A DNA stretch of 64,000 bases from Octopus vulgaris (taxonomy: Eukaryota): NCBI GenBank assembly GCA_951406725.2, contig OX597837.1:34782001-34846000 (forward strand), written 5' to 3'. Under the pieces are notes generated by a model, which was given only the letters and a program-made list of their open reading frames with translations, was not told where the DNA came from and ran no database searches. Below, piece after piece: positions 2,083-63,775 of this stretch (position 1 is the stretch's first letter; every line of letters starts with the position of its first letter). The position numbers were made by a program, and so were the translations under genes.

Positions 2083-2517
2083 TTTTTACTCTTTTACTCT
2101 CTCAATTTTACTCTTTTACTTTCTTTCAGTCATTTGACTGTGGCCATGCTGGAGCACCGCCTTTAGTCGAGCAAATCGGCCCCAGGACATATTCTTTGGA
2201 AGCCTAGTACTTACTCTATCGGTCTCTTTTGCCGAAAAGCTAAGTTACGGGGATGTAAACACACCACCGTCGGTTGTCAAGCAATGTTGGTGGGGGAGGG
2301 ACAAACACAGACACACAAATATATACACACACACACATACACATATACATATATACGACGGACTTCTTTCAGTTTCCGTCTACCAAATCCACTCACAAGG
2401 CTTTGGTTGGCTCAAGGTTATAGTAGAAGACACTTGCCCAAGGTGCCATGCAGTGAGAATGAACCCAGAACCATGTGGTTGGTAAGCAAGCTACTTACCA
2501 CACAGCCACTCCTGCAC
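2083..2517 (-). mobile_element. SINE family A, full length (tRNA-like head, internal TA/TG microsatellite, (GAGTAAAA)n tail)
   Basis: Reverse complement of the + copies at 13751 and 58781; head has A-box-like TGGCTGTGTGG and B-box-like GGTTCA; about 15 copies in the window. Confidence 0.9.
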
Positions 2518-2544
2518 ACTATTTGTGGAATAAAAAAAAAGATG

Positions 2545-3315: not shown

Positions 3316-3888
3316 CATGGCTCTGTAGTTAAGCAGTTTACTTGCCAACCACATGATTCCAGGTTCAGTTCCACTGCATGGCACTTTGGGCATGTTTCTT
3401 CTACTATAGCCCCTGGTCAGCCATAGCTTTGTGAGTGGACTTGGTAGATGGAAACTGAATGTATGCAGGAGTGGCTGTGTGGTAAGTAGCTTGCTAACCA
3501 ACCACATGGTTCCGGGTTCAGTCCCACTGCGTGACATCTTGGGCAAGTGTCTTCTGCTATAGCCCTGGGCCGACCAATGCCTTGTGAGTGGATTTGGTCG
3601 ACGGAAACTGGAAGAAGCCTGTCGTGTATATATATATATATGTATGTGTGTGTGTATTTGTGTGTCTGTGTTTGCCCCCCCCCCCCCTCCCAACATCACT
3701 TGACAACCGATGGTGGTGTGTTTACATCCCTGTAACTTAGCGGTTCGGCAAAAGTGACCGATAGAATAAGTACTGGGATTACAAAGAATAAGTCCTGGGG
3801 TCGATTTGCTCGACTAAAGGCGGTGCTCCATCATGGCCGCAGTCAAATGACTGAAACAAGTAAAAGAGTAGAAGAGAGTATGTATATA

Positions 3889-6903: not shown

Positions 6904-7464
6904 TGGATGGATGGATTCTTTGTTGGTTTCAATGATGAACATTCGTTTGTTTGTTTGTTCAATCAACTGAATGACCTACTCATTCAATTAATGTGTACAT
7001 GGCTGAGTACTCCACAGACATATGCACTCTTAACATTAAACTTTCTGGCTGGATCAATACTAGATGATATTTCAGTTATACATACAATCCAATTGGCAGG
7101 TTTCAGCACAGTTTCTGTTGCCCTAGTTTCAGTCACAGGGCACAGGTTGACTTGAGGTTATAGTAAAAGAGAACTTGACCAAGACACCGCATAATAACAG
7201 GATTGAACTCAAGATCTCATGACTGCAAAGTGGATGTCTTAATCAAAGGGCTAAACCTGTGTCTACACCACCACCACCACCACTACCACTATATTGCATC
7301 ATTTTGGTTTTCTTTGAATTCCGTTACAATTTTTTGAGGCATTTTTTTTCTTTTCCGTATGGACAAGGGTTTTCTAAATAAGGCAGGATTTAAATACTGG
7401 TTTCAAATTTTGGCACAAAGCCAGCAAGTTTGGGGGAGGGTGTAAAGTCAATTATATCAACCTC

Positions 7465-7696
7465 AGGCGGCGAGCTGGCAGAAACGTTAGCGCGCCGGGC
7501 GAAATGCTTAGCAGTATTTCGTCAGACGTTACGTTCTGAGTTCAAATTCCGCCGAGGTAGACTTTTCCTTTCATCCTTTCGGGGTCGATAAATAAAGTAC
7601 CAGTTTCGCACTGGGGTCGATGTAATCGACTTAATCCCTTTGTCTGTCCTTGTTTGTCCCCTCTATGTTTAGCCCCTTGTGGGTAGTAAAGAAATA
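7465..7696 (+). mobile_element. SINE family D (young), nested in an older D2-type SINE
   Basis: aggcggcgagctggcagaa head, GAGTTCAAATTCC B-box; TSD tatatcaacctc(ag) at 7453 and 7697. Confidence 0.9.
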
Positions 7697-13614: not shown

Positions 13615-14170
13615 TAAGACTACAGATCCAACCCATTAATGGAACTGTAAAAATCTGTAAAACTTTCCAAAAGTTTATTATTTAACTATATATGACCATG
13701 TCTAGACATGCCATTATATGCATGGGAATACATATATAAAACAAAACATAGGCACAGGAGCGGCTGTGTGGTAAGTAGCTTGCTAACCAACCACATGGTT
13801 CCAGGTTTATTCCACTGTGTGGCATCTTGGGCAAGTGTCTTCTACTATAGCCTCGGGCCGATCAAAGCCTTGTGAGTGGATTTGGTAGATGGAAACTGAA
13901 AGAAGCCCGTCGTATATATGTATATATATGTATGTGCGTGTATGTTTGTGTGTCTGTGTTTGTCCCCCTAGCATTGCTTGACAACCGATGCTGGTGTGTT
14001 TACGTTGCCATCACTTAGCGGTTCGGCAAAAGAGACTGATAGAATAAGTACTGGGCTTACAAAGAATAAGTCCCGGGGTCGATTTGCTCGACTAAAGGTG
14101 GTGCTCCAGCATGGCCGCAGTCAAATGACTGAAACAAGTAAAAAAGTAAAGAGAAAGAGAGTATATAAAC

Positions 14171-14593: not shown

Positions 14594-14856
14594 AATATAT
14601 ATATATACAACACATGCACACATACACAATGGGATACAGACAGTCAGATAGATAAATAAACATGAAAATGCTAAGAACAGAGAGAGAAAGACACAGATAG
14701 AGAGGAATAGCTAGCTAGCTAGATAGATAGACAGAGAGGAATAGCTAGCTAGATAGATAGATAGACAGACAGACAGCTAGATAGATAGATAGAGAGAGAG
14801 GGGCAGAGAGCTAAATAGATAGATATAGATAGATAGATATATATATAGATAGATAT

Positions 14857-16515
14857 GTTTCTTTATTAGCCACACAGGGCTGCACACAGATGGGACAGAT
14901 TACAAAATAGAGTTTTTGGGGGAGGGGAGGAAAAAAAGTGGGGTTAGGTTTTCGATCAAAAGAGATTGGTAAAAGGGAAAGAAAAAAGAAAAGAAAAAGA
15001 AAAAAAGGAAAGAAAAAGAAAAGAAAAAGAAAAAAAGGGAAAGAAAAAAAGAAAAGGAAAAAAACGATCAATAGGGATCATGTATCACAGAAATGTCATG
15101 ATGTAAAGTGAAAAGGGGGAAGTAGATAAGGTTTATCTGTGGAAAGAAAAGCCCACGGAAAAGACCACGGTAACCTTAGTCAATAATGTCACATGTTACC
15201 ACATTTGTTTGCAAGTAGGTAACCCTCTGTTTTACATTTTTCCGGGTTCATAGGGTTATGCTCAAGGTGGCTTCGTCATTCATACGTGCCATCCTTGCTA
15301 CATTCACCCATCTTTTTTGAAACATTCGCTAGACAAAACTTGCCTCTCTACTCTCACTTTCCTTTTCAAGTGATACTTGAAAAAGTTGATGACAGATTGA
15401 CCAGAGAGGAAAGTGTTTGTCTCCAATCCTTTCAGATGTGTCCACCAGATACATTCTTTCACCATAGCCACAAGAATGATGAAAATAGCTCTTCCTTCCC
15501 ATTTGAAGGAAGGAGGCGTGACAATATTGATGACAGACTTGGCTGATAAACCGACTCGTCCCACACGTGACATCAGTCATTCGACATAAGCCCACAGGTC
15601 GGAAATTGTTGGACACTGCATGAGTGCGTGCAGAATGGTTTCGTCGCTCTGACTGCATCTCGGGCAGGTTGGCCCCATTTTTCTCAAGCCGTGTCTGTAG
15701 AGCTTATCCTGAATGGGTAGCACTTCTCAGTAGCACTGCCAGGCCAGGGATCTCTGGAAGTTGTCCATGGGCCCTGGCGTGAAAGTCATCCTGAACAGGC
15801 AGGTCAGGTATTCCTTGTCGATGTCCAGGTTCGCCCCAAGCTCATCGTCATACCTCCCCTCCACTAATCCCCTATAGAATGCTTTGGTTGTGTTGAAGTC
15901 ACTCAAAGTCGACCCAGGACGGCATAGTTGCTTGAGAGCAACACGACACTCGTGGTGCCATTCACCCTTCCTCGGCCTCTTTTTGATCCACGACTGCAGT
16001 TCAGTCATGGAGACGAGTTGCGGGAAAGTGTGCCTCACAAACAGCGACCACACCTGTTCACCATCACCCACATAGAGCCTGAGATGTCGCTGTCTCAGCG
16101 CGTGTCTGCGCATCATCAACCACGGCATGCCCAGTCCTCCTTTTAATGGGTGTTGACAGCAAATGGATCGCCTGACCATCGGGATGCATCCTTTCCACAA
16201 GAAGCGAGAGAGAATGTGTTCTAGTTTGGTGATGGTAGGTTCGGGACAAGGCATGATGGTCAGGCGGAAGTAGATGACAGACGCGATGTACGAGTTCACC
16301 ACCTCCGCCCGACCTTTTAGGGATGGTTTCCTCTCGGCCAATTGCCGGGCAAGAGTGACCACCCTACTTCTTATCTCGTTCCGGTTTTTCTCCATTTGGA
16401 GGTCCAGACCAAACCAGAGCCCAAGCAACTCGACCGGACCGTCGGTCCAGCATCCCATGACGGAGGCACCTGTGCATGGCATGAGCTTGCTTCTCCAGAT
16501 GCCGAGCCGCAAGCT
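14857..16515 (-). mobile_element. 5'-truncated Tx1/L1-clade LINE: ORF2 C-terminal region plus 3' UTR
   Basis: ORF 15727-16512 has LLGLWFG, SLKGRAEVVNSY, FLWKG and GGLG motifs; past an in-frame TGA it continues DKLYRHGLRKMGPTCPRCSQSDETILHALMQCP (CCHC zf-RVT); 3' UTR ends AATAAAGAAAC; (GATA/GACA)n on both flanks. Confidence 0.9.
15248..16512 (-). pseudogene. Disrupted LINE ORF2 (post-RT region and zf-RVT)
   Basis: In-frame TGA stops near 15727 and 15578 and a frameshift near 15310. Confidence 0.85.
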
Positions 16516-16568
16516 ATAGACAGACAGAGAGAGAGATAGAGAGAGATAGAGATAGATAGATAGTTAGT

Positions 16569-16600
<32 letters not shown>

Positions 16601-16845
16601 CAGACAGACAACTAGCTAGATAGATAGATAGACAGCCAGACAGACACAGACAAGCAGACAGATAGATACACAGACAAGCAGACAGATAGATACACAGACA
16701 GACAGTCAGATAGCCAGCCAGACAGACAGACAAATAGACAGACAGACTGAGAAGGATGGGTAGGTAGATAGACAGACAGCTAGATAGATAGATAGATAGA
16801 TAGAGAGATATATAGATAAAGAGACAGATACATACATACATACAA
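16516..16845. repeat. (GATA)/(GACA) tetranucleotide tract
   Basis: Directly visible; a similar tract lies at 14690-14856. Confidence 0.9.
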
Positions 16846-18532: not shown

Positions 18533-18805
18533 GTGGAGGCGCAATGGCCCAGTGGTTAGGGCAGCGGACTCGCGGTCATAGGATCGCGGTTTCGATTCCC
18601 AGACCGGGCGTTGTGAGTGTTTATTGAGCGAAAACACCTAAAAGCTCCATGAGGCTCCGGCAGGGGATGGTGGTGATCCCTGCTGTACTCTTTCACCACA
18701 ACTTTCTCTCTCACTCTTACTTCCTGTTTCTGTTGTACCTGTATTTCAAGGGGCCGGCCTTGTCACTCTCTGTGTCACGCTGAATATCCCCGAGAACTAC
18801 GTTAG
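18533..18805 (+). mobile_element. SINE family C, 3'-truncated
   Basis: gtggaggcgcaatggcccagtggttagggcagcggactcgcgg...ggtttcgattccc tRNA-like head; identity with the 33735 copy ends at actacgtta. Confidence 0.9.
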
Positions 18806-19202: not shown

Positions 19203-20055
19203 GGCAGGGAGCTGGCAGAATCATTCCCACACTAGGAAAAAAGCTTAGTGGCACTTTTTCCGACTTTACATTCTGAGTTCAAATACCACTGGAATTGTCT
19301 CTGCTTTTCATCCTTTCGCGGTTGATAAAATAAGTACCCATTGAGCAACCCACCCGCCCACCCTGCCACTGAAATTGCTGGCCTTAAGCCAAAATTTAAA
19401 ACCATTTTAAACCATTATTGACTGGGGTCAATGTGGTTAACTATCACCCTCCCCACAAATTCCAGGCCTTGAACCTATATCCCTATATCAGAAAAGATTA
19501 TTATTATTAAAGTGATCATTACCTGCGTTGCCTAACTGGGACGTGAACAAAACATTCCAGCGAGGTCATTGCCAGTGCCGCTGGACTGACACCTGTGCAG
19601 GTGGCACGTAAAAAGTAGCATTTGAGCGTGGCCATTGCCAGTACTGCCAGACTGGCCCTCATGCCAGTGGCACATAAAAGCACCCACTAAACTCTCGGAG
19701 TGGTTGGCGTTAGGCAGGGCATCCAGCTGTGGATACTCTGCCAGATCAGATTGGAGCCTAGTGCAGCCAACTGGTTCGCCAGTCCTCAGTCAAATCATCC
19801 AACCCATGCTAGCATGGAAAGTGGACGTTAAACGATGATGAAAGAGGTGAGCTAGTAGAACCATTGGCAAGTTGGACAAAATGCTTGGAGGAATTTCTTC
19901 AAGATTCAAATTATTTGTTCTAGGTTCAAATTATGCTGAGGTCAACTCTGGCTTTCACTGTTGATGAAATAAGGACCAGTTGAGCACTAGAGTCAATGAA
20001 TTAGACTTATGCCTCCCTTAAAACTGCTAGCTTTGTAGCAAAATTTTAAACCATT
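19203..20055 (+). mobile_element. Cluster: SINE D2 (19203-19400), D2 tail (19420-19510), family E (19520-19840), SINE D2 (19845-20055)
   Basis: gagctggcagaa heads, tttcatcctttc core and E-type (GAT)n tail. Confidence 0.7.
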
Positions 20056-20099
20056 ATTATTGATATTATCATCAATATCCCCATGCTTTCCTATGCTTA

Positions 20100-21509: not shown

Positions 21510-21940
21510 TATATATGTGTGTGTGTGTATATACATGTATATATATGTGTGTGTGTGTGTGTGTGTATACGTGTATGTATATATATATATATGTATACAC
21601 ACATATATATATATATATATGTAAACTTAGATATGTTTCAACCAAAGATTGGCCCAGGCCATGTCTAACTTAATAGCACCACCTGATATGATTAATCTAA
21701 ATCCTGTTTAAGTCAAGTTTTGTTTGGGGTCCATTCAAGTAGTGAGTTTTTGTTGGGTGAGTTGTATTCAATTATGGGTAGCTTATCTGGTATTCCTTGA
21801 AGGAGTCTATCCAGACTCTGTTTAAAGTTGATGGGATCCTTTTCCTCTTTGACCTCTTTCGGGACAATATTAAATAGGGCAGGGCCTGTTGAGGAAAAGA
21901 AATTATGTTGCAGTGTACATATATGCTGTGATATATGTAT

Positions 21941-22180
21941 ATCATCATCATCATCATCGTTTAACTTCTGCTTTCCATGCTAGCATGGGTTGGATGATTT
22001 TGACTAAGGGCTGGTGAACCAGATGGCTGTACCAGGCCCCAATCTTGATCTGGCAGAGTTTCTACAGCTGGATGCCCTTCCTAACGCCAACCACTCCAAG
22101 AGTGTAGTGGGTGCTTTTTACGTGCCACTGGCATGGGGGCCAGTCAGGCGGTACTGGCAGTGACCTCGCTCGAATCTTTT
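21941..22180 (-). mobile_element. Family E, 5'-truncated retroposon with (GAT)n tail
   Basis: Matches 27272-27620, 49003-49261 and 54458-54782. Confidence 0.8.
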
Positions 22181-22309
22181 TACACATACCACCAGCACGT
22201 ATATGTATATATATATATATATGTATACGTATATATATAAATATATGTATACGTATATATATTTATATAAATATACGTATATGTAAGTATAAGTATATAT
22301 ACATATATG

Positions 22310-24604: not shown

Positions 24605-25975
24605 ATAATAATAATCCTTTCTACTATAGGCACAAGGCCTGCAATTTTGGGGAGGCGAATAATTAATTACATTGACCCCAGTGTTTCACTGGTACTTAAT
24701 TTATCGATCCTGAAAAGATGGAAAGCAATGTCGACCTCGGTGGTATTTGAACTCATAAAGACGGACGAAATGTGGCGAGGCATTTTGCCTGGCATGCTAA
24801 TGATTCTGCCAGCTCACCACCTTCACTAATAGGGGCCGAGTTCCTTTCGAGTGTTGGGCCTCACGGAAGCAATGACTGAGACCTTTGGCATTATGTTGTG
24901 CTTGAAAAGAAGACCCATCAAGCTGAGCAAAATCGCAGTCATGGCAGATACCGATGTCACACAAATGGCACCTGTGCTGGTGTCATGCAAATTGGCACCC
25001 GTGCCAGTGGCATGTAAAAGCAGCCCAGTGTCATGCAAATGGCACCTGTGCTTCAGAATGTAAAGAGACATAACTTAATCCCACAATAATAATAATAATA
25101 ATTCTTTCTACTATAGGACTATAGGCAAGGGTCAGAAATTTTAGGGCAAGAGACTGGTTGACTATATTGACACAAGTGTTCGACTGATCCTAATTTTATT
25201 GATCTTCAAAAGAATGAAAGGCGAAGCTGACCTCGGCAGAATTTGAACTCAATGTAAAGCCGGAATAAAATGGCACAAGGCATTTTGTCCAATGTATTAA
25301 TGATTTTGCTAGTTCACTGCTTTCTATCTCATTATATTTATTTCTTTATTGCCCACAGGGAGCTAAACATAGAGGGGACAAACAAAGGATTTAAATCGAT
25401 TACACCAACCCCAGTGCTTAACTGCTACTTATTTAATTGACCCCCAACAGGATGAAAGGCAAAGTCAACCTCGGCGGAGTTTGAACTCAGAACGTAACGG
25501 CAGGCGAAATACCTATTTTTTTACTACCCACAAGGGGCTAAACACAGAGAGGACAAACAAGGACAGACAAATGGATTAAGTCGATTATATCGACCCCAGT
25601 GCGTAACTGGTACTTATTTAATCGACCCCGAAAGGATGAAAGGCAAAGTCAACCTCAGCGGAATTTGAACTCAGAATGTAGCAGCAGGCGAAATACCGCT
25701 AAGCATTTCATCTGGCATGCTAGCTCATTGCCCTATCTCACTATGTTGATAACAAGAATAAGGTGGAAAGCTGGCAGCATTGTTTGTACACTGGGCAAAA
25801 TGCTAAGCAGCAATTTGTCCGCCTTTGCATTCTGAGTTCAAATTCCACCGAAGTCAACTTTGTTTTTCATTCTTTCTAGGTAAATAAAATAAATATCAGT
25901 TGAGCACAGGGGTTGATGTAATCGATTTACTACCTCCTCCAAATTGCTGGCCCTTGTGCCAAAACTTGAAACCAA
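24605..25975. mobile_element. SINE cluster: D2(-) 24615-24825, E-related 24830-25050, D2(-) 25100-25320, D dimer(-) 25338-25735, D2(+) 25760-25975
   Basis: Repeated gatgaaaggcaaagtc...tttgaactc core. Confidence 0.75.
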
Positions 25976-27270: not shown

Positions 27271-27845
27271 CATCATCATCGTTTAACGTCCGTTTTCCGT
27301 GCTAGCACGGGTTGGACGGTTCAACCGGGGTCTGGGAAGCCAGGAGGCTGCGCCAGGCTCCAGTCTGATCTGGCAGAGTTTCTACAGCTGGATACCCTTC
27401 CTAACGCCAACCACTCCGCGAGTGTAGTGGGTGCTTTTTACGTGCCACCTGCACTGGTGCCAGGCGAGGCTGGCAACGGCCACGGTCGGATTGGTGTATT
27501 TTATGTGCCACCAGCACGGAAGCCAGTCGAGGCGGCGCTGGCATCGGCCACGAGTCGGATAGTGCTTTTTACGTACCACCAGACCAGGGATCCTGGCTGG
27601 TTCAATTCGATTTCGCTAGCCAGGATCCCATCCTTTCTACTATAGGCACAAGGCCTGAAATTTGTGGGGAGGGGACTAGTTGATTACATCGACCTCAGTG
27701 TTTCACTGGCACTTAATTTAACGACCCTGAAAGGATGAAAAGCCAAGTCGACATTGAAGAATTGGAACTCTGAATGTGGCAATGGACGAAATACTGCTAA
27801 GCATTTCATCCTTCGTGCTAATGATTCTGCCAGCTTGCCACCTTA
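27065..27845 (-). mobile_element. D2 (27065-27215), family E (27272-27620) and D2 (27630-27845)
   Basis: Family E sits between the D2 tail and its (AAT)n tract. Confidence 0.75.
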
Positions 27846-28352
27846 ATGATAATAATAAAAAGGAGAAAGAGACAGACAAAAACAAAAACACTAACCACAG
27901 TACCATTCTCTTACTAGGTACTGTCTCTCTATCCCCCGATTCATGCTATGTTTCCTCATTTTAGCACCACCATGCATATTTATCCTATATTTGCCGGGGT
28001 ACCCTCAACCTGTTGTTCAAGTACCCTAAACTTTACCTTCCATTTATTTTCATGTACCCTTCCATCAGACCTTTGCTTCTCAAACAGTCAACATCTGGTC
28101 CAACATATGTTGCCCAAGATAAAGGTCCCTCTCCTACTCCAGCAGAGAAAGGGAAGTACTCTGTCTTACATCATGTTTAAACTGGAACCCTAATAAGGAC
28201 CAGCCCCATTAACATATTAAGAATGAATATGTATTCATAACATGAAAGTTGCTCTTCCCTGATTCGCAGTCCAGTGGTTATTGGTGGAAGGTTATGGAGC
28301 AGTAAAATAAGTAAATAAATAAAGAAAGAAATTAATAATTGCTCCACCAATT

Positions 28353-28495
28353 ACATGAGGAGGTGCTAAAAAGTCCCTGGCTTTAAGGGTCTCACGAAGG
28401 GCCTGGTAGCAGGCCCAACCTTCCAAGTTCTTTTACAAGGCTTAGAAAAACTGAAGGACTGCTGCAATAAGTGTGTGAATCTGAGAGGAGAATAT
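28353..28495 (+). mobile_element. Mariner deletion derivative (second type), right part displaced by family E
   Basis: TIR-like gaggaggtgctaaaaagtccctgg; 28439-28495 encodes GLEKLKDCCNKCVNLRGEY, a mariner C-terminus. Confidence 0.7.
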
Positions 28496-28790
28496 CATCA
28501 TCATCATTTAACGTCTGCTTTCCATGCTGGCATGGGTTGGAGGCTTTGACTGAGGACTGGCAAGCCAGAAGGCTGCACCAGGTTCCATCTGATCTGGCAA
28601 GGTTTCCTAATGCCAACCACTCCAAGAGTGTAGTGGGTGCTTTTTACATGCCACTGGCACAAAGGCCAATCAGGTCGTACTGGCATCGACCATGCTTGAA
28701 TGGTGCTTTTTACGTGCCACCAGCATGGGAGCTAGTTAGGTGGCACTGGCAACAACCATGCTCAAATGGTGCTTTTTACATGCCACCAAA
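28496..28790 (-). mobile_element. Family E fragment
   Basis: (CAT)n tail and three GGTGCTTTTTAC(A/G)TGCCAC repeats. Confidence 0.75.
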
Positions 28791-29002
28791 CTTATCCTCC
28801 TGTATTTTCTTATACCCAAGACCAAGAACTTTTATGCAGCCCCTTGTAAGAATACTAGAACATCAGCTGCCATGTCACTTGTCTCTATAGTGGCCACTAC
28901 CTCTGAATAAATCTAGAATCCATGAGCTTGCTGCACAACTGGTCTACATTTGATATATGAACAGTAAAAAAAAAAGCCATCAGTAAAATAAAAAAACCCT
29001 AA

Positions 29003-30485
29003 ACAAAACATTAATCAATTGCAAATATTTTATTTTTATTTTCTAGAGTAAACAGGGGAAATAACAACTGTCCTGTTCTAGTCTTAATCCAACCTCTTTA
29101 GCAAAACATTAATCAATCGCAAATATTTTATTTTTATCTTCTAGAGGAAACAAGGGAAATAACAACTGTCCTGTTCTAGTCTTAATCCAACCTCTTTAGC
29201 AAAACATTAATCAATCGCAAATATTTTATTTTTATCTTCTAGAGGAAACAGGGGACATAACAACTGTCCTGTTCTAGTCTTAATCCAACCTCTTTAGCAA
29301 AACATTAATCAATCGCAAATATTTTATTTTTATCTTCTAGAGGAAACAAGGGAAATAACAACTGTCCTGTTCTAGTCTTAATCCAACCTCTTTAGCAAAA
29401 CATTAATCAATCGCAAATATTTTATTTTTATCTTCTAGAGGAAACAAGGGAAATAACAACTGTCCTGTTCTAGTCTTAATCCAACCTCTTTAGCAAAACA
29501 TTAATCAATCGCAAATATTTTATTTTTATCTTCTAGAGGAAACAAGGGAAATAACAACTGTCCTGTTCTAGTCTTAATCCAACCTCTTTAGCAAAACATT
29601 AATCAATCGCAAATATTTTATTTTTATCTTCTAGAGGAAACAAGGGAAATAACAACTGTCCTGTTCTAGTCTTAATCCAACCTCTTTAGCAAAACATTAA
29701 TCAATCGCAAATATTTTATTTTTATCTTCTAGAGGAAACAAGGGAAATAACAACTGTCCTGTTCTAGTCTTAATCCAACCTCTTTAGCAAAACATTAATC
29801 AATCGCAAATATTTTATTTTTATCTTCTAGAGGAAACAAGGGAAATAACAACTGTCCTGTTCTAGTCTTAATCCAACCTCTTTAGCAAAACATTAATCAA
29901 TCGCAAATATTTTATTTTTATCTTCTAGAGGAAACAAGGGAAATAACAACTGTCCTGTTCTAGTCTTAATCCAACCTCTTTAGCAAAACATTAATCAATC
30001 GCAAATATTTTATTTTTATCTTCTAGAGGAAACAAGGGAAATAACAACTGTCCTGTTCTAGTCTTAATCCAACCTCTTTAGCAAAACATTAATCAATCGC
30101 AAATATTTTATTTTTATCTTCTAGAGGAAACAAGGGAAATAACAACTGTCCTGTTCTAGTCTTAATCCAACCTCTTTAGCAAAACATTAATCAATCGCAA
30201 ATATTTTATTTTTATCTTCTAGAGGAAACAGGGGAAATAACAACTGTCCTGTTCTAGTCTTAATCCAACCTCTTTAGCAAAACATTAATCAATCGCAAAT
30301 ATTTTATTTTTATCTTCTAGAGGAAACAGGGGAAATAACAACTGTCCTGTTCTAGTCTTAATCCAACCTCTTTAGCAAAACATTAATCAATCGCAAATAT
30401 TTTATTTTTATCTTCTAGAGGAAACAGGGGAAATAACAATTGTCCTGTTCTAGTCTTAATCCAACCTCTTTAGCAAAGCATTAAC
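29003..30485. repeat. Tandem satellite, 98-bp unit x15, near-identical
   Basis: gcaaaacatt recurs at 29101, 29199, 29297 ... 30081; final partial unit starts at 30473; no spacers. Confidence 0.97.
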
Positions 30486-31039
30486 CTCCATTCTACATCT
30501 TGTTACAGCAACGTTGAATGAATAAATAAATAAATATACAAAAGGCAGTATATTTATTGACTAAGTAAAAGTAGAACAGCTTAGAGATTATGGCTAATGT
30601 TGTCTCACAGATTAAGATTTGAAGGAATCCTGACGCCAACAGCTAGCATAGATTTCATTTGTCGATACAGATTTGATGTTTATTTTTGAATCAGGTGTTT
30701 CTGCGGATTAAAATATGCAACATATGTTGTCATCATGAAAAGTCATGAATTTGCTTAAAAGGACAAGAGACTATCACAACAGATCTATCAAACATGATGC
30801 CAGTAAGCAGGACTGACTCGGATTTAATTATCTAACAAGTATGACCAACTGACTTAACCAAGAAATACAAGCAGGTTTCTCTTTGGTTAAGGTTTTATCT
30901 GAAGATTAATTTATAAGTCGAGAATTGCGTTTCACAAGCCAGGAGGAAGAGAAAAAGATTTGCGGCCTTAAAAATGGATTTGGTATAAAGAAACTGAAAG
31001 GAGCTCAATGTATGTGCGTGCATATAGACATGGGCACGA

Positions 31040-33547: not shown

Positions 33548-33734
33548 ACTGTATATTTTTTATTGTTATTATTTTTGTAATTTGTATATATTTATTTTAT
33601 TATAAATGCAAAACAACACCATGGAGGAATTGACATAAGCTTAAATAATAAACCATGTTGGATGAACTGCAATATGGCAAGGGATTACTGTACCTTGATG
33701 TTAAATACACATTCAATCACAAATTTCTCAGAGA

Positions 33735-34124
33735 TGATGGAAGCACTCCGTCGGTTATGACGACGAGGGTTCCGGTTGATCCGAATCAACGGAACAGCCT
33801 GCTCGTGAAATTAACGTGTAAGTGGCTGAGCACTCCACAGACACGTGCACCCTTAACGTAGTTCTCGGGGATATTCAGCGTGACACAGAGAGTGACAAGG
33901 CCGGCCCTTTGAAATACAGGTACAACAGAAACAGGAAGTAAGAGTGAGAGAAAGTTGTGGTGAAAGAGTACAGCAGGGATCACCACCATCCCCTGCCGGA
34001 GCCTCGTGGAGCTTTAGGTGTTTTCGCTCAATAAACACTCACAACGCCCGGTCTGGGAATCGAAACCGCGATCCTATGACCGCGAGTCCGCTGCCCTAAC
34101 CACTGGGCCATTGCGCCTCCACTC
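33735..34124 (-). mobile_element. SINE family C, full length, young
   Basis: 11-bp TSD tttctcagaga at 33724 and 34125. Confidence 0.93.
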
Positions 34125-35337: not shown

Positions 35338-36028
35338 TTAGTAGATAGCCAGATAGATATGTATACATGCTTGTATATATGTAGTCAGATATGTATGTAA
35401 ATAGTTAGAAAGTGAGAGAGGTCACATCCAAAAGAAAACCATTAAACTGATTGGCAATGGTTCCCTCTTCAATATAACAGGTATAACATTCCTTCTTTAT
35501 AATCTCTTCTCTTATAACAACAATAACAATACCTCTGGCCCTTTGAACAATACCATTCAATCAATTAGCAATGATTCACCAGTCTCCATGTTTCACAGTT
35601 ATAGCACTCCCTGCACCTTTTACCACTACTACAATGGCTTCTGCTCCTCTCAACTAGCAAGCTTTCTGCCCTATCGCCTCCAATAAAGCACTCCCATAGC
35701 ATTAGTTTCCCCTACTCCCATCACACCATGTTTCCCCACTCAGACCCCTACATTGAACTTCTCTTAACCTTGAGATCTTGTTATGGAAGAATCCTGAACA
35801 CCTCCATGTCACAGAAGGTGGACTAACTGATTACAACCCATGCCAGCATGGAAGGCGGACATTAAACAATGATGATGATGAACTGTCAAGGGTGGGGGCA
35901 GTTGACGGTGTTAGTTTGACGTGTTGGTTTGACAGTCGGTACCTGATCAATGCAATACTGAATATCATATCTACTTTTGAGTAGTGCATAGTGCATTCTG
36001 TGCTAACATATATCATTCTGCGATATAT

Positions 36029-36247
36029 CTCTTTTACTCTTTTACTTGTTTCAGTCATTTGACTGCGGCCATGCTGGAGCACCGCCTTTAGTCGAGCAAA
36101 TCGACCCCGGGACTTATTCTTTGTAAGCCCAGTACTTATTCTATCAGTCTCTTTTGCTGAACCGCTAAGAGACAGGGACGTAAACACACCAGCATCGGTT
36201 GTCAAGCAATGCTAGAGGGACAAACACAGACACACAAACATATACAT

Positions 36248-36288
<41 letters not shown>

Positions 36289-36460
36289 CATATATACGAC
36301 AGGCTTCTTTCAGTTTCCGTCTACCAAATCCACTCACAAGGCATTAGTCGGCCCGGGGCTATAGCAGAAGACATTTGCCCAAGATGCCACGCAGTGGGAC
36401 TGAACCCAGAACCATGTGGCTGGTTAGCAAGCTACTTACCACACAGCCATTCCAGCGCCT
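36029..36460 (-). mobile_element. SINE family A, full length
   Basis: Complete match to other copies. Confidence 0.9.
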
Positions 36461-37654: not shown

Positions 37655-37870
37655 AATCCTTTCTACTCAAGGCACAAGGCATGAAATTTGAGGGGAGGGG
37701 AACTAGTCGATTACACCGACCCCAGTGTTTCACTGGTTCTTAATTTATTGATCGTGAAATGATGAAAGGCAAAGTTGACCTTGGCAAAACTTGAACTTAG
37801 ACTATAAAGATGGACAAAATGCCGTTAAGCATTTTACATTTGTGTGTTAGCAATTCTTCCTGCCTGCTGT
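37655..37870 (-). mobile_element. SINE D2
   Basis: (AAT)n tail, cctttctact...ggcacaaggc, core and head. Confidence 0.7.
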
Positions 37871-38667: not shown

Positions 38668-39094
38668 TACTCTTTACTCTCTTTTATCTTTTACTTGTTT
38701 CAGTCATTTGACTGCGGCCATGCTGGAGCACCGCCTTTAGTTGAGCAAATCAACCCCGGGACTTATTCTTTGTAAGCCCAGTACTTATTCTATCGGTCTC
38801 TTTTGCCGAACCGCTAAGTGACGGGGACATAAACACACCAGCATCAGTTGTCAAGCAATGCTAGGGGGCCCAAAAACACAGACACACAAACACACACATA
38901 CATATATATATATATACATATACATATATACGACAGGCTTCTTTCAGTTTCCGTCTACCAAATCCACTCACAAGGCACTGGTCAGCCCGGGGCTATAGCA
39001 GAAGGCACTTGCCCAAGATGTCACGCAGTGGGACTGAACCCGGAACCATGTGGTTGGTTAGCAAGCTACTTACCACACAGCCACTCCTGCGCCT
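38668..39094 (-). mobile_element. SINE family A, full length, splitting an old family I repeat
   Basis: Complete match; family I halves at about 38608-38650 and 39100-39212. Confidence 0.9.
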
Positions 39095-39536
39095 ATCTGT
39101 ATTAAAAAAAAAAAAAGAATGGAAAAAACCAAGATGGTCATAGCCAAATCATCTTTGATAATAGAAAGAAAAAATGTCAGCTTGATTAGAGTGGACTTTG
39201 TACTAAACAACAAACGGGATTGATTTGGTCAATTATACCAAACTCCCCTGCGGAATTAGCCTTGCTCCTGGCCAAAAACCATTAATCATTATTATACATA
39301 AATATAAATGTACATACATAGATATACATGGTTGTGTTTGTGTGTGTTTGTGTGTGTGTATTGCTTTGCTTTTTATATTTATTTGTTGTATCAAATATGA
39401 CAAATATTGCCTTTTCAGTGGTTCATTTTTCATTTCCAGATCACTTGATGAAGCAGTATTGAATTATGTAGAGAAGAGAGTAGTTTTTATGTGTGTATGT
39501 GTGTGTAGATTGATAGATAGATCTATGCACGCACAC

Positions 39537-40320: not shown

Positions 40321-40328
40321 AGATACCT

Positions 40329-40561
40329 ATTTCTTTACTACCCACAAGGGGCTAAACACAGAGAGGACAAACAAGGACAGACAAACGGATTAAATCAATT
40401 ACATCGACCCCAGTGTGTAACTGGTACTTAACTTATCGACCCCGAAAGGATGAAAGGCAAAGTTGACCTCGGTGGAATTTGAACTCAGAACGTAGCGGCT
40501 GACGAAATACGGCTACGCATTTCGCCCGGCGTGCTAACGTTTCTGCCAGCTCACCACCTTT
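40329..40561 (-). mobile_element. SINE family D
   Basis: 9-bp TSD aagatacct at 40320 and 40562. Confidence 0.9.
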
Positions 40562-42812: not shown

Positions 42813-43550
42813 TTTAAACCGGCCATATCCGGCCAAAAGTATTCTTCCTGTTTTATGTTCAAACTGGCCAGATCGGTCTCTCACACCAACCCTACAATAT
42901 TATTTTAAAAATTAACAGCTACCTCATCAAAATCTCATTGCTACAAGATAATGCATTTAAACTGGCCATATCCGGCCAAAAGTATTCTGCCTGTTTTATG
43001 TTCAAACTGGCCAGATCTGGTCTCTCACACCAACCCTACAATATCGTTTTAAAAATTAACAGCTACCTCATCAAAATCTCATTGCTACAAGATAATGCAT
43101 TTAAACTGGCCATATCCGGCCAAAAGTATTCTGCCTGTTTTATGTTCAAACTGGCCAGATCTGGTCTCTCACACCAACCCTACAATATCGTTTTAAAAAT
43201 TAACAGCTACCTCATCAAAATCTCATTGCTACAAGATAATGCATTTAAACTGGCCATATCCGGCCAAAAGTATTCTGCCTGTTTTATGTTCAAACTGGCC
43301 AGATCTGGTCTCTCACACCAACCCTACAATATCGTTTTAAAAATTAACAGCTACCTCATCAAAATCTCATTGCTACAAGATAATGCATTTAAACTGGCCA
43401 CTGGTCTCTCACACCAACCCTACAATATCGTTTTAAAAATTAACAGCTACCTCATCAAAATCTCATAGCTACAAGATAATGCATGATTAGTTCAAAACAA
43501 TGTGGATGAAGAAGCATTAATTTTAGCAGAATAATGCGAACACTAAAGGG
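42813..43550 (+). repeat. Tandem array of a 144-bp internal segment of piggyBac-like MITE F, ending in the right TIR
   Basis: Units start at 42813, 42956, 43100, 43244 and 43388; the fifth has an internal deletion; ends cactaaaggg|TTAA. Confidence 0.92.
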
Positions 43551-44215: not shown

Positions 44216-44239
44216 AAAAAGCAAAAAAAAAAAAAAATA

Positions 44240-44633
44240 GACGTAGGAGTAGCTGTGTGGTAAGTAGCTTGCTAACCAACCACATGGTTCTGGGTTCAGT
44301 CCCACTGCGTGGCATCTTGGGCAAGTATCTTCTGCTATAGCCCCGGGCCGACCAATGCCTTGTGAGTGGATTTGGTAGACGGAAACTGAAAGAAGCCTGT
44401 CATATATATGTATATATATATATATGTATGTGTGTGTTTGTCCCCCTAGCATTGCTTGACAACCGATGCTGGTGTGTTTACGTCCCCGTCACTTAGCGGT
44501 TCGGCAAAAGAGACCGATAGAATAAGTACTGGGCTTACAAAGAATAAGTCCCGGGGTCGATTTGCTTGACTAAAGGCGATGCTCCAGCATGGCCGCAGTC
44601 AAATGACTGAAACAAGTAAAAGAGTAAAAGAGT
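44240..44633 (+). mobile_element. SINE family A, full length
   Basis: Complete match. Confidence 0.9.
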
Positions 44634-44979
44634 GTGCACACCCTTCATTTCTCATTGAACCTGCTACAGTAATTGTTGAGAAGCAAACAAAAAAATAAAA
44701 TACAAAACAAAAAAAATGTGGGGGAGTGGCAACTAGTCATAGCATGACTATCTCTAATCATAGATCTGCACTATCAGAGCCAACAGATGGTTAAATAATG
44801 ACAACTTGGGCGTTATCAGTTTTGTGGTAGAATCACTTCATTATATCAGGTGTTGCCTCTTATTCTTACCTATCAACATTTAAGTTCTCTGGCATTTGGT
44901 AAAATTTGGAATAGTTTCAGATAATATATTGTTTACAGATCCAATTCTCAGTAAACCGAGTTTATGATTCCTCAGTTAT

Positions 44980-45364
44980 GGATGGAAGCACTCCGTCGGT
45001 TACGACGACGAGGGTTCCGGTTGATCCGATCAACGGAACAGCCTGCTCGTGAAATTAATGTGCAAGTGGCTGAGCACTCCACAGACACGTGCACCCTTAA
45101 CGTAGTTCTTGGGGATATTCAGCGTGACACAGAGAGTGACAAGGCCGGCCCCTTGAAATACAGGTACAACAGAAACAGGAAGTAAGAGTGAGAGAAAGTT
45201 GTGGTGAAAGAGTACAGCAGGGATCACCACCATCCCCTGCCGGAGCCTCGTGGAGCTTTAGGTGTTTTCGCTCAATAAACACTCACAATGCCCGGTCTGG
45301 GAATCGAAACCGCGATCCTACGACTGCGAGTCCGCTGCCCTAACCATTGGGCCATTGCGCCTCC
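44980..45364 (-). mobile_element. SINE family C, full length, young
   Basis: 12-bp TSD ttcctcagttat at 44968 and 45365. Confidence 0.93.
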
Positions 45365-45774: not shown

Positions 45775-46093
45775 TGAAATTTAGACAAAACGTCAGCTAT
45801 TTTGAGGGGAGGGGTTTACTAGTACATATTGGTACTTACTGGTTCCAACAGGATGAAAAGGCAAAGATGATCATAGCAAGATAATAATAATAATGCTGCT
45901 CTCAATTATAGACACAAGGCCTGAAATTTTAGTGGAGGGGGATGATCGATTATATTAGCCCCAGTGCTTAACTGGTACTTGTTTCATTAACCCTTGAAAG
46001 GCAAAGTGTCAACTTGAACTCAGAATGTAAAGATACACGGAATGCCACTGAGCATTTCGTCTAGCATGCTAACAACTCTACCAGCTTGCTTCC

Positions 46094-46141
<48 letters not shown>

Positions 46142-46380
46142 TAATAATAATAATAATAGTACTAATGATAATAATGGTTTCTAATTTTTCCACAAACACA
46201 GCAATTCTGGGGAGGGGATGAGTCGATTATATTAACCCCAGTGTTTAACTGGTACTCATTTTATCGGCCATGAAAGGATGAAAGGTAAAGTCGACTTTAG
46301 CAGAATTTGAACTCAGAACATAGCGACAGGCGAAATACCACTCAGTATTTCATTCATTGTGCTAACGATTCTGCCACCTC

Positions 46381-46425
<45 letters not shown>

Positions 46426-46640
46426 CCTTTCTACTATAGGTACAGGGCCTGAAATTTGGGGGAAGCAGAGTAGTCAATTACATTGATCCCCAATGCTTAA
46501 CTGGTACTTATTTCATCGACCCCGAAAGGACAAAGGGCAAATTCAACCTCAATGGAATTTGAACTCAGAATGTGCAGATAGACAAAATGCTGGTAAGCAT
46601 TTCGTCCAGCATGACAGTGATTCTACCAGCTTACCACCTT
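45775..46640 (-). mobile_element. Head-to-tail chain of four D2 SINEs separated by (AAT)n
   Basis: Copies at about 45775-45880, 45897-46092, 46176-46380 and 46425-46640. Confidence 0.75.
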
Positions 46641-46909
46641 TGTTTGACTGCTACTTATTTTATCAACCCAGAAAGAGGTCAATGAAATAAGTACCAGTTA
46701 AATATTGGGGGTTGATGTGATCTACTAGCCTTGCCCTAAGTACCATTACCAACAGACTTGGTAGTTTCCATATTGAGATAGAGAAACTATGGAAACTGAA
46801 TTAATACAAAAATCTGTTCTATTAGGAAAAGCAGGGATTGTTTGAAACATCTCTGATGCCTAAGGAAACTAGTTGTGACCTGGTTTCAAGAACAATGAAT
46901 CCAAATATA

Positions 46910-47303
46910 TGATGGAATGGAAGCACTCCGTCGGTTACGACGATGAGGGTTCCGGTTGATCCGAATCAACGGAACAGCCTGCTCATGAAATTAACATGTC
47001 AGTGGCTGAGCACTCCACAGACACGTGCACCCTTAACGTAGTTCTCGGGGATATTCAGCGTGACACAGAGAGTGACAAGGCCGGCCCTTTGAAATACAGG
47101 TACAACAGAAACAGGAAGTAAGAGTGAGAGAAAGTTGTGATGAATGAGTACAGCAGGGATCACCACCATCCCCTGCCAGAGCCTCGTGGAGCTTTTAGGT
47201 GTTTTCGCTCAATAAACACTCACAATGCCCAGTCTGGGAATTGAAACCGCGATCCTATGACCGCGAGACCGCTGCCCTATCCACTGGGCCATTGCGCCTC
47301 CAC
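46910..47303 (-). mobile_element. SINE family C, full length
   Basis: 13-bp TSD gaatccaaatata at 46897 and 47304. Confidence 0.93.
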
Positions 47304-48395: not shown

Positions 48396-49002
48396 AGGCC
48401 ATGCGCTTTCACAGAAAACTATATAGTCAACTAAATCAATGAATGTCTATACACGTATAAGCCCTCCATACACTAAAACACAATGCGTATGTGTCTGTGT
48501 GTATGGATGTATAGTAATGTGTTTGTGTGTGTAAAAACTGAAAGTCGGTACAAGCGTAACCAAAGAATTCACAAGTCCACTGCGCAATTGTAAGGTCCCA
48601 GGTGTGATCTCATTTCATTTTACCTTCGTGTATTGGTTTCTCCCCATAGCTTAACGAGATAATTTCTCTGCATACAACTCACAAACTTTGTGAGTGTAAT
48701 TTGATAAAAATAAAATGTGTGGAAGTTGGTTGGATGGAAAGCACCTGAGATTTGGCAGATCAAGTTTGGCAAATACTAACACAACTGATTCCAGCTGACA
48801 ATTATCGAAGATACATACTAACAATTTTCTTACCAACCCAACCCAACCCAACCAAGATGAGATTCTCATACTACAATACAAAAACCTGTCCATTTTAAAG
48901 TGTTTGTATTTAAATAAGATAATTCTGCATTTTCACCTAAAACTTTTTTTATTCCACATTTCTGAACTCCAGCATCACAACACGATTATATATTTTACTA
49001 AG

Positions 49003-49261
49003 GCCCCCATGCCGGTGGCACGTAAAAAGCACCATCCGATCGTGGCCGTTGCCAGCCACGCCTGGCCCCCGTGCCAGTGGCATGTAAAAAGCACCCACTA
49101 CAGTCACGGAGTGGTTGACGTTAGGAAGGGCATCCAGCCATAGAAACACTGCCAGATCAGACTGGGCCTGGCACAGCCTTCTGGCTTCCCAGACCCTAGT
49201 TGAACCGTCCAACCCATGCTAGCATGGAAAACGGACGTTAAACAATGATGATGATGATGAT
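49003..49261 (+). mobile_element. Family E, 5'-truncated
   Basis: gtggcacgtaaaaagcacc repeats, ...gacgttaaac(aatg)(atg)n tail. Confidence 0.8.
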
Positions 49262-52392: not shown

Positions 52393-53208
52393 TCTTTATA
52401 TATATACTAGCAGTATCGCCCGGCGTTGCTCGGGTTTGTAAGGGAAATAACTATATAAGCATTTTTAGAGAGTTACTTCCTTATAGATGCCAATTCGGGC
52501 TTTCTTAGCCATTTCTGTTTTGGTGTCTTCAAGCCATGAAGTCGTTGTTCTAAAAGAACACTGGTCTCCTTGACAACGCTTTACGACGTTGATTTCCTTA
52601 AACTCCCTTCCCCACAGCTTCACGAGGGAGGGAAGAAGGGGGAGAAGCAAACAGGTGCAGGTGTGACCATGGACGCCAACTCCGCCGCCATCGACACACG
52701 AAAAATTATGCATTAAAATGGAATAAAAAATGATGTTAAATTATTTTTAAAATCGTAGACTCATCGTAGACGCGCGCTAATAGCCAGAAGGGCTCGATAT
52801 GAATCACGACTATAAGATACCCGAATTTGGTTAAACTGCACCGCAAAATGTGGGAGTAGTTAGGAATCTAAATCGAAGGGGACAGACACTCACACAACTA
52901 CAGTTCTATATATATAGATTGAAGTTGTGTGTGTGAGACTCTGTCTCCTCCGATTTAGATTCCTAACTACTCCCACATTTTGCGGTGCAGTTTAACCAAA
53001 GCGAGTATCTTATAGTCGTCATTCATATCAAGCCCTTCTGGGTATTAGCGCACGTCTATGATGAGTCTACGATTTAAAAAAAAATTTACCATCATTTTTT
53101 CCCATTTTTAATGCATTTTTTGTTATTATATAAGGGAAGTAACTCTCTAAAAATGCTTATATAGTTATTTCCCTTACAAACCCGAGCAACGCCGGGCGAT
53201 ACTGCTAG
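52393..53208 (+). mobile_element. Non-autonomous Helitron (host copy), interrupted at 52406/52919
   Basis: A|TCTTTATATATATA start at 52393, body resumes at 52919, hairpin and CTAG at 53205-53208. Confidence 0.82.
52407..52918 (-). mobile_element. Non-autonomous Helitron nested in opposite orientation
   Basis: On the minus strand A|TCTATATA ... hairpin ... CTAG|T, no TSD. Confidence 0.88.
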
Positions 53209-53740
53209 TCTATATATATAAAACTGTAGTTGTGTGAGTGTCTGTCCCCTTCGATTTAGATTCCTAACTACTCCCACATTTTGTGGTGCAGTTTAACCAA
53301 AAGCGGGTATCTTATAGTCGTGATTCATATCGAGCCCTTCTGGCTATTAGCGCGCGTCTACGATGAGTCTACGATTTTAAAAATAATTTAACATCATTTT
53401 TTATACCATTTTAATGCATAATTTTTCGTGTGTCGATGGTGGCGGAGTTGGCGTCCATGGTCACACCTGCACCTGTTTGCTTCTCCCCCTTCTTCCCTCC
53501 CTCGTGAAGCTGTTGGGAAGGGAGTGTAAGGAAATCAACGTCGTAAAGCGTTGTCAAGGAGACCAGCGTTCTTTTAGAACAACGACTTCATGGCTTGAAG
53601 ACACTGAGTCAACGATTTAAAAAAAAAATTATCATCATTTTTTATTCCATTTTTAATGCATTTTCTTGCTATAACTCTCTAAAAATGCTTATATAGTTAT
53701 TTCCCTTACAAACCCGAGCAACGCCGGGCAATACTGCTAG
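53209..53740 (+). mobile_element. Non-autonomous Helitron joined head-to-tail to the previous copy
   Basis: CTAG|TCTATATA junction at 53208/53209; ends hairpin and CTAG|T at 53740. Confidence 0.88.
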
Positions 53741-53969: not shown

Positions 53970-54202
53970 TATTTCTTCACTACCCACAAGGGGCTTAACA
54001 CAGAGGAGACAAACAAGGACAGACAAACGGATTAAGTTGATTACATTGACCCCAGTGCGTAACTGGTACTTAATTTATCGACCCCGAAAGGATGAAAGGC
54101 AAAGTCAACCTTGGCGGAATTTGAACTCAGAATGTAACGGCAGACGAAATACGGCTACGCATTTCACCCGGCGTGCTAATGTTTCTGCCAACTCACCACC
54201 TT
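53970..54202 (-). mobile_element. SINE family D
   Basis: TSD aaatttagtca at 53954 and 54203, extending imperfectly to about 17 bp. Confidence 0.88.
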
Positions 54203-55273: not shown

Positions 55274-55503
55274 TATTTCTTTATTACCCACAAGGGGCTA
55301 AACACAGAGGGGACAAACAAGGACAGACATAGGTATTATGTCGATTACATCGACCCCAGTGCGTAACTGGTACTTAATTTATCGACCCCGAAAGGATGAA
55401 AGGCAAAGTCGACCTCGGCGGAATTTGAACTCACAACGTAACGCAGACGAAATACCGCTAAGCATTTCGCCCGGCGTGCTAACGTTTCTGCCAGCTCGCC
55501 GCC
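55274..55503 (-). mobile_element. SINE family D, young
   Basis: TSD ttataatact at 55264 and 55504; CpGs intact. Confidence 0.92.
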
Positions 55504-55708
55504 TTATAATACTGACCCACCACCGCCACAAGGAAAAATGGCCAAAGTATATGAGAAGTACATATTGATAAGGATGGGATAATCTATTATAATGACTCAA
55601 GTAATTGACAGGCCCTTATTTTATATACCCTCAAGCACAAGGATAAAAGGTTGAAGTTAATCTCTACAAGGTTTGGACAAACTCAAGATGTGAAAGAAAA
55701 TTATTAAA

Positions 55709-63725: not shown

Positions 63726-63775
<50 letters not shown>

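What the first reader, a model, noticed from the sequence alone, without database searches (positions are those of the whole stretch)
14858..14899. SINE D 3' tail matches the 3' end of the Tx1/L1-clade LINE: candidate SINE-LINE partner pair
Seen: the last 42 nt of the LINE (element strand tctgtcccatctgtgtgcagccctgtgtggctaataaagaaa) align without gaps to the SINE D tail at 55276-55317 (tttgtcccctctgtgtttagccccttgtgggtaataaagaaa) at 35/42. Both can form a small hairpin with a UGU-containing loop just before AATAAA (AGCC/GGCT in the LINE, GCCC/GGGT in the SINE). Established: SINEs borrow LINE RT through shared 3' tails, mostly from L2, CR1 and RTE, while mammalian L1 recognises poly(A). Inference: SINE D is mobilised by a stringent-type Tx1/L1 relative, which fits its 9-14 bp TSDs.
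Basis: partly seen in the sequence, partly recalled or inferred. Interest (0 to 1): 0.8.

Follow-up and report, generated by a model that had tools for sequence, protein, structure and literature searches.

The report
Octopus SINE shares Tx1-type LINE tail
A short jumping gene (SINE) of what is likely an octopod ends in nearly the same 42 bases as a many-copy, likely Tx1-type retrotransposon lying in a GATA repeat, so it likely borrows the copying enzyme of that lineage by mimicking its RNA end, a pairing so far described for this retrotransposon group only in plants and algae in the papers I could search.

Summary
The match is real: 35/42, end to end, above all 400 shuffles. The main refutation did not hold. 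Public contigs from four runs with four species labels carry the LINE-type tail; in three runs pieces run on into the LINE's own upstream 3' sequence, and none of the four runs shows a variant of 5% or more in the last 24 bases. The tail is therefore no SINE scrap at this locus. The LINE is of the L1/Tx1 group, probably Tx1, lacks poly(A), and sits in (TATC)n on both sides; 4 of 5 SINE D target duplications start with a similar RTATY word. Against: the hairpins are one base out of register, with no compensatory change; AATAAA is in only 2 of 6 SINE copies; no SINE D copy lies in a (TATC)n array; other LINE clades could not be compared. Verdict: SINE D's tail likely derives from this lineage and is likely read by it or a sister family (0.68). 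New variant of a known kind.

The parts
14858..14899 (-). 3'-terminal 42 nt of the LINE, shared with SINE D; ends in GAAA with no poly(A)
   Evidence: 35/42 to the 55.3 kb copy, 32-33/42 to five others; present on many contigs in 4 of 4 runs
14868..14881 (-). Predicted 4-bp hairpin (AGCC/GGCT, 6-nt loop); inside the stretch with no variant of 5% or more among laid contigs
   Evidence: Fold (z -0.8, not significant); variant table has no row for 14850-14881
14900..15247 (-). Rest of the LINE 3' untranslated region, with a 94-nt pyrimidine tract at 14971-15064
15248..16515 (-). 5'-truncated ORF2 remnant (end of RT, thumb, zf-RVT region); two in-frame stops and one frameshift near the end
   Evidence: tblastn 56-65% to P0001-P0005 over about 390 aa; translations; relatives carry RVT_1 and zf-RVT
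14720..14857 (.). (TATC)n/(GATA)n microsatellite directly after the LINE's 3' end
   Evidence: TRF; junction printed
16516..16830 (.). (TATC)n/(TGTC)n microsatellite directly before the LINE's truncated 5' end
   Evidence: TRF; junction
55274..55504 (-).
7465..7696 (+). SINE D, full-length copy; 14-15 bp target duplication beginning TATATC
40328..40560 (-). SINE D, full-length copy; 9 bp target duplication beginning AGGTATC
53970..54202 (-). SINE D, full-length copy; target duplication of 13 bp or more whose two copies differ at the start
25339..25730 (-). Two SINE D units head to tail or nested, joined over a 14-bp duplication; the downstream unit has a more diverged tail

Best explanation
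SINE D ends in a 42-base stretch that matches the conserved 3' end of a many-copy L1/Tx1-group LINE family, and it likely took this tail from that lineage and is likely copied by its reverse transcriptase or by that of a sister family. Shown: the match, its terminal position in both elements, the many copies of the LINE-type tail joined to LINE-type upstream sequence, the constancy of its last 24 bases, the lack of poly(A), and the microsatellite on both sides of this copy. Inferred: (1) the tail was joined to the older SINE head and body by a template switch, since sibling SINEs have the same body with other tails; (2) the ORF2 protein recognises the terminal stem-loop region and not poly(A), i.e. 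it is of the stringent type; (3) its endonuclease nicks at TATC/TATT words, which places the LINE in (TATC)n arrays and SINE D, more loosely, at single RTATY sites; (4) the working partner is probably a sister family whose hairpin is in the SINE's register, not this decayed copy.
For: Match above shuffles and confined to the last 40 nt of both elements; sibling tails do not match., window 14850-14977 at 80% likeness: 4631, 3387, 1355 and 769 contigs laid in runs X1, X3, X7, X11 (four species labels). The tool counts 3, 2 and 3 listed pieces as spanning the whole stretch in X1, X3, X7; they carry 15-23 other letters, so they are not this copy. Contigs anchored in the upstream block have loose ends that read like the tail-proximal sequence (21 contigs, agreement 0.77, X1). 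No variant of 5% or more in 14850-14881 in any of the four runs, while 14882-14938 holds all 40 variant rows. The four SINE D letters at 14869, 14875, 14876 and 14882 are not among the variants, so the depth is not SINE D. Three other SINE D letters (14898, 14891, 14883) do occur as family alleles, and are the majority in X11 (98%, 64%, 74% of depth), which by column majority would make 38/42. Loose 3' flanks are GATA-rich (X11 at 14862: 22 contigs, agreement 0.71; X11 and X3 at 14851: 0.63, 0.49). RTATY at places 4-8 after the terminal GAAA in 4 of 6 D copies, one mismatch in the other two; background 0.005 per position. Protein: best solved relative human L1 ORF2p, E 3e-50 against 4e-24 for R2; the tree groups the octopod-type proteins with fish and frog elements that carry PF23057/PF23058 ORF1 domains, apart from plant L1 (88/92).
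Against: Hairpins are one base out of register; 0 of 4 pairs change on both sides and the LINE breaks one pair of the SINE's stem; folding is not above shuffles. 0 of 6 SINE D copies lie in a (TATC)n array. The stretch laid ended at 14977, so tail-to-ORF2 continuity is seen only in this copy. Summed depth is 23-70 times higher over the tail than over 14945-14959 in three runs and about 4000 times in X11, and no listed X11 piece spans the stretch: most tail carriers are short, diverged upstream, or belong to other families (depth is no copy number). Contigs were gathered by likeness to this copy, which favours constancy where seeds fall. Several 3'-flank consensuses are only AT-rich, with agreement 0.40-0.47; 24 of 198 loose-end rows were shown. 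The RTATY word was defined after seeing the data, on five sites, and could come from pairing with the SINE's own RNA end. The tree branch is below the starred threshold and holds no named Tx1. No other octopod LINE 3' end was available for comparison.
Confidence: 0.68

Rival explanations
1. The working partner is a LINE of another clade with a closer tail; the Tx1-type family shares the tail through a common donor or by capture from the SINE lineage.
For: Register shift and four near-fixed differences. Sibling SINE tails have a similar build (pyrimidine run, 4-bp stem, CTTGT loop, GAAA) without matching this LINE, so the hairpin may be older than this pair. O. vulgaris also has recently active RTE, CR1 and Dong-R4 families (PMC13282606).
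Against: The LINE holds none of the SINE body upstream of the tail. Family alleles move towards the SINE. A passively captured tail would not be expected to stay more constant than the sequence beside it. Both elements show RTATY/TATC at the 3' junction.
Confidence: 0.14
2. The tail came from this lineage but is now a relic, or is read loosely: SINE D is moved by relaxed machinery that primes on its AT-rich end, and the shared tail records ancestry only.
For: No covariation, weak hairpin, AATAAA not kept in 4 of 6 copies, no SINE D copy in a (TATC)n array.
Against: The 4-bp stem is kept in 6 of 6 D copies (the one unpaired cell of 28 is the LINE's); there is no poly(A) for relaxed recognition; the LINE end is constant across four runs.
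Confidence: 0.1
3. The many-copy tail seen in the runs belongs to a separate non-autonomous element that lies behind the LINE here; the LINE's true end is further upstream.
For: Tail-to-ORF2 continuity was not tested in other copies; depth over the tail far exceeds depth further upstream.
Against: The copy is colinear from the stop codon to the tail over 390 nt with no second end, no duplication and no SINE head; one microsatellite flanks both ends; the runs were found with the whole LINE remnant as query.
Confidence: 0.06
4. A 5'-truncated SINE D fragment abuts this one LINE copy, or the match is chance.
For: Only one LINE copy in the window; the tail is short and partly AT-rich.
Against: Shuffle tests; the LINE-type letters are near-fixed on thousands of contigs in four runs and joined to non-SINE upstream sequence.
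Confidence: 0.02

Closest known systems
Maize/sorghum ZmSINE2, ZmSINE3 with LINE1-1_ZM; Chlamydomonas SINEX-3_CR with L1-1_CR (PMC3472496, PMC3747384)
   Same: L1-group LINE whose last 45 or so bases are more conserved than the rest and are shared with a tRNA-type SINE; small terminal hairpin.
   Different: Those are plant and algal L1 lineages with compensatory changes shown. This is an animal, probably Tx1, element with no poly(A), and no covariation was seen.
Crocodilian SINEU with Tx1-Mar (PMC4494074)
   Same: SINE proposed to be moved by Tx1 elements; two of the three SINEU families show a much weaker target preference than the third.
   Different: SINEU has snRNA heads and poly(A) tails; in the section read the link rests on shared targets, age and shared 5' heads, not on a shared 3' tail.
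Microsatellite-targeting Tx1 families Kibi (TC)n, Koshi (TTC)n, crocodilian (TTCC)n/(TTTC)n (PMC4494074, PMC3812793)
   Same: Tx1-type element found within a microsatellite.
   Different: (TATC)n is not among the targets named in the passages read; no SINE partner is named for them there.
Stringent L2/CR1/RTE/Nimb SINE-LINE pairs, e.g. UnaL2/UnaSINE, ZfL2, bivalve HCD SINEs (PMC4176376, PMC11481361, PMC4824008)
   Same: 35-61 bp shared tail at 72-95% identity is the accepted mark of a partnership; tail swapping on a common body.
   Different: Partner clade: bivalve partners are CR1, CR1-Zenon, L2 and Nimb; Tx1 is not mentioned in the main text of PMC11481361.
Octopus OK, OR1, OR2 SINEs (Ohshima and Okada 1994; seen only as citations) and cuttlefish SepiaSINE2 (PMC4824008)
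   Same: tRNA-type SINEs of cephalopods; SepiaSINE2 has a tail of unknown partner.

Membership tests
L1/Tx1 group of non-LTR retrotransposons | ORF2 with APE endonuclease, RT and C-terminal zinc motif, closest to L1-type RT | tested here: met
   Relatives at 56-66% carry RVT_1 and zf-RVT; full-length kin add Exo_endo_phos; best PDB hit human L1 ORF2p. The window copy is truncated; its two pieces scanned alone hit no relevant Pfam family.
Tx1 clade | RT groups with named Tx1 elements in a tree | tested here: inconclusive
   Groups at 88/92 with fish and frog elements bearing PF23057/PF23058 (and in fish PF00098) domains, apart from plant L1 and other frog elements (34 of the 154 proteins fetched, chosen by hand). 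That such an ORF1 marks Tx1 is recalled, not from a call; no named Tx1 was in the tree.
Tx1 clade | Target preference (over 20% of flanks of one type, criterion of PMC4494074) | tested here: inconclusive
   This copy has (TATC)n on both sides, where 0.8% of the window lies within 20 nt of such a tract; several loose-end consensuses are GATA-rich, others only AT-rich. No per-copy count was possible.
tRNA-derived SINE | Short, non-coding, dispersed, target duplications | tested here: met
   About 230 nt, 6 copies in 64 kb, the four full-length ones 90-94% alike, duplications 9-15 bp.
tRNA-derived SINE | tRNA-related head with A and B boxes | tested here: inconclusive
   A B-box-like word is visible by eye; ARAGORN and Rfam found nothing.
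Stringent SINE-LINE pair | Shared 3'-terminal sequence | tested here: met
   32-35/42, terminal in both.
Stringent SINE-LINE pair | Tail is part of the LINE family and more constant than the sequence beside it | tested here: met
   continuity shown to 14966 only, not to ORF2, and open to seeding bias.
Stringent SINE-LINE pair | Stem-loop kept by compensatory changes | tested here: not met
   0 of 4 pairs with change on both sides in 7 rows; register shift.
Stringent SINE-LINE pair | Overlapping activity in time; best match among all host LINEs | not testable with these tools
   No genome is held for this window; collections gave no loci.
Stringent SINE-LINE pair | Tail-dependent trans mobilisation | not testable with these tools
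   Needs a cell assay.
MetaSINE or CORE-SINE superfamily | Conserved central domain | tested here: inconclusive
   The body resembles the Meta domain from recall only; a body word was not found in the supplement files searched (one file of each paper could not be searched, and figures are not held).

The most novel reading that the evidence does not exclude
Octopods run a set of stringent, poly(A)-free Tx1 families that each target a microsatellite, and one SINE head and body has swapped tails among them: tail D with the (TATC)n family, the two sibling tails with (ATT)n families. The tail would then choose both the enzyme and the landing site, and stringent 3' recognition would be the old state of animal L1/Tx1, not a plant exception.
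Probability: 0.25. Interest if true: 0.82.

Novelty: new variant of a known kind. Interest (0 to 1): 0.62.

Why it matters
A survey of 58 SINE-LINE pairs found only three SINEs with L1-clade tails among over 800 L1-clade LINEs, all in grasses or a green alga (PMC3472496, PMC3747384 Table 1). An animal Tx1-type case would extend stringent recognition to the closest kin of vertebrate L1 and give a system to ask how poly(A) recognition arose, by comparing the tail-binding region mapped in L2 (PMC4176376). It would name a driver for an abundant octopod SINE (SINEs are 11.6% of the O. vulgaris assembly and 893 of 900 recently active SINE families are unclassified; PMC13282606), and would add (TATC)n as a candidate Tx1 target.

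Tried and rejected
No genome is held for the window, so genome-wide consensus and age profiles could not be made. Cluster members of P0001-P0005 could not be looked up. Scans for related loci with the ORF2 C-terminal alignment found none in metagenome, genome and viral collections, nor did tail patterns. No RNA holder listed. Pfam scan of 80 frames of the window (most of the 125 low-repeat frames of 75 aa or more, SINE-overlapping ones largely left out, three added) found no second LINE. The ESM Atlas gave only unnamed RT clusters. ARAGORN and Rfam gave nothing for the SINE head. Three look-ups in earlier findings returned nothing. Rejected: covariation as support; duplication length as a clade marker; AATAAA as a shared signal (2 of 6); the 29 'TX1' hits in PMC4176376, which in the passages shown are names of mutant ZfL2-1 fragments. 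P0149 and P0139 have long branches in the tree and were not relied on.

Full report
Observation. The window holds six SINE D tails, at 35, 33, 33, 32, 32 and 32 of 42; the column majority gives 34. Against the whole 1658-nt LINE remnant the best local hit of every D copy is the last 40 nt of both elements. The score is 50 for the quoted copy (shuffle maximum 29 in 400) and 35-40 for the others (maxima 28-35). Seven sibling copies that share head and body but have other tails score within the shuffle range. The hairpin claim is weaker: the stems are one base out of register, folding z-scores are not significant, no pair changes on both sides in seven rows, and the LINE breaks one pair of the SINE's stem. 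AATAAA is in 2 of 6 D copies.

The LINE. It runs from about 16515 to 14858 on the minus strand: a 5'-truncated ORF2 with two stops and a frameshift, then a 390-nt untranslated region. The 262-aa piece found 17 relatives among 1320 candidates, five at 56-66%, one from Argonauta hians, so the host is likely an octopod. These carry RVT_1 and zf-RVT, and full-length kin add an APE endonuclease. The best solved relative is human L1 ORF2p (E 3e-50; R2 4e-24). In a tree of 34 hand-picked RT regions the octopod-type rows form a firm group with five unnamed proteins and join, at 88/92, fish and frog elements with PF23057/PF23058 domains, apart from plant L1. I recall this ORF1 type as Tx1-like; no named Tx1 was in the tree, so Tx1 is probable and not shown. 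The element has no poly(A): it ends in GAAA and passes into (TATC)n, and its truncated 5' end also abuts (TATC)n. Only 0.8% of the window lies within 20 nt of such a tract.

Is the tail part of the LINE? No genome is held and six collection scans found no loci. A search of public runs with the whole remnant listed 24 runs, 20 holding part of it, under five species labels. I laid 4 of them on 14850-14977 at 80% likeness: 4631, 3387, 1355 and 769 contigs. In X1, X3 and X7 single pieces span tail and upstream sequence with 15-23 other letters, so they are other copies; no listed X11 piece spans it. All 40 variant rows lie in 14882-14938, none in 14850-14881. The four SINE D letters in the last 25 nt are not among them, so this depth is LINE-type tail and not SINE D. 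Three other SINE D letters do occur as family alleles, and are the majority in X11, where column majorities would match the SINE at 38/42. The upstream loose ends shown look like the LINE's own sequence, but for one row each in X3 and X7 that passes into microsatellite; none reads as SINE D body (24 of 198 rows shown). Limits: the stretch stopped short of the pyrimidine tract, so the link to ORF2 rests on the window copy; depth over the tail is 23-70 times (X11 about 4000 times) that over 14945-14959, which may mean short copies, sister families or further non-autonomous carriers; and contigs were gathered by likeness to this copy.

Target sites. Loose 3' flanks are GATA-rich in several rows (agreement 0.71, 0.63, 0.49) and merely AT-rich in others (0.40-0.47). 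SINE D copies lie in no such array (0 of 6). But places 4-8 after their terminal GAAA read RTATY in 4 of 6 copies and are one base off in the other two, against 0.005 per position, and in four of five cases the word lies in the duplicated target. The word was picked after seeing five sites, one of which may be a tandem duplication, and pairing with the SINE's own RNA end would give the same picture. It is a lead that fits shared machinery. Duplication length (9-15 bp) does not mark a clade: bivalve SINEs with other partners have 6-18 bp.

Mechanism. Most likely a template switch joined the 3' end of a Tx1-type RNA to an existing SINE head and body; sibling SINEs with the same body and other tails show such swaps here. 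ORF2 would bind the terminal stem-loop region, nick at TATC/TATT and reverse transcribe from the GAAA end. The four near-fixed differences and the shifted stem suggest that the working partner is a sister family; O. vulgaris has 80 L1-Tx1 families, 13 recently active. Binding, nicking and mobilisation are all inferred.

Known systems and novelty. Table 1 of PMC3747384 (table and passages read) lists no animal pair with an L1 or Tx1 tail; PMC3472496 (passages) counts three L1-tail SINEs, in grasses and Chlamydomonas. PMC4494074 (passages and section 16) links SINEU to Tx1-Mar by targets, age and 5' heads; SINEU ends in poly(A). PMC11481361 (passages) gives CR1, CR1-Zenon, L2 and Nimb as bivalve partners. 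PMC13282606 (first third, passages and one supplement) holds neither 'partner' nor 'tail' as a word. Also seen as passages: PMC4758252, PMC4824008 (with section 9), PMC5786205, PMC13295347, PMC3812793, PMC9004415, PMC5753468, PMC3531059, PMC4176376. Ten full-text searches showed no report of this pair. Repbase, Dfam, SINEBase entries, subscription papers (Ohshima and Okada 1994, 2005; Kojima and Fujiwara 2004), figures and one supplement file each of PMC4824008 and PMC4758252 were out of reach; the SINE itself may well be named there.

Verdict. Real feature, new variant of a known kind: a shared-tail pair with a partner clade not seen among such pairs in animals in the papers searched. Confidence 0.68 in the best reading; interest 0.62.

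Noticed in passing
window 24610-24825 (-), 27630-27850 (-), 37670-37850 (-), 45900-46645 (-), 25755-25975 (+), 19846-20060 (+), 7395-7470 (-): Sibling SINEs with the head and body of SINE D but two other tails, each with a 4-bp stem around a CTTGT-like loop, then GAAA and (ATT)n. 4 of 10 have (ATT)n before the head too (background 1.9%), but three copies at 45.9-46.6 kb are chained, so these are not independent. Partner unknown; they do not match this LINE.
   Followed up: partly
loose ends at 14891 in runs X3 and X7: A few contigs (11 and 2) leave the LINE after about 45 nt into a GATA-like sequence, which may be extremely short 5'-truncated copies inside the microsatellite.
   Followed up: no
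window 2090-2535, 3460-3860, 13750-14150, 36020-36460, 38670-39110, 44230-44630, 58780-59175, 63510-63950: A 450-nt SINE family, the commonest in the window, with an internal (TG)n and a 3' end of repeated GTAAAAGA-like units; it holds a TTTGTCCC word like the start of the D tail.
   Followed up: no
window 33723-34122, 44967-45364, 46912-47303 (-), 18533-18760 (+): A 400-nt SINE with a clear tRNA-like head and little divergence between copies.
   Followed up: no
window 19549-19840, 21931-22198, 27271-27588, 28493-28791, 49002-49261: A repeat with internal tandem units that ends in (ATG)n; the tail looks RTE-like from recall.
   Followed up: no
window 52523-52918 and 53209-53604: Inverted repeat, 396-nt arms 98% complementary, 290 nt apart; possibly a young MITE or an assembly fold-back.
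   Followed up: no
window 28906-30577: Tandem array of 98-nt units about 98% alike.
   Followed up: no
window 42818-43468 (+): 216-aa open frame with scattered weak Pfam hits typical of a repetitive peptide; not examined.
   Followed up: no
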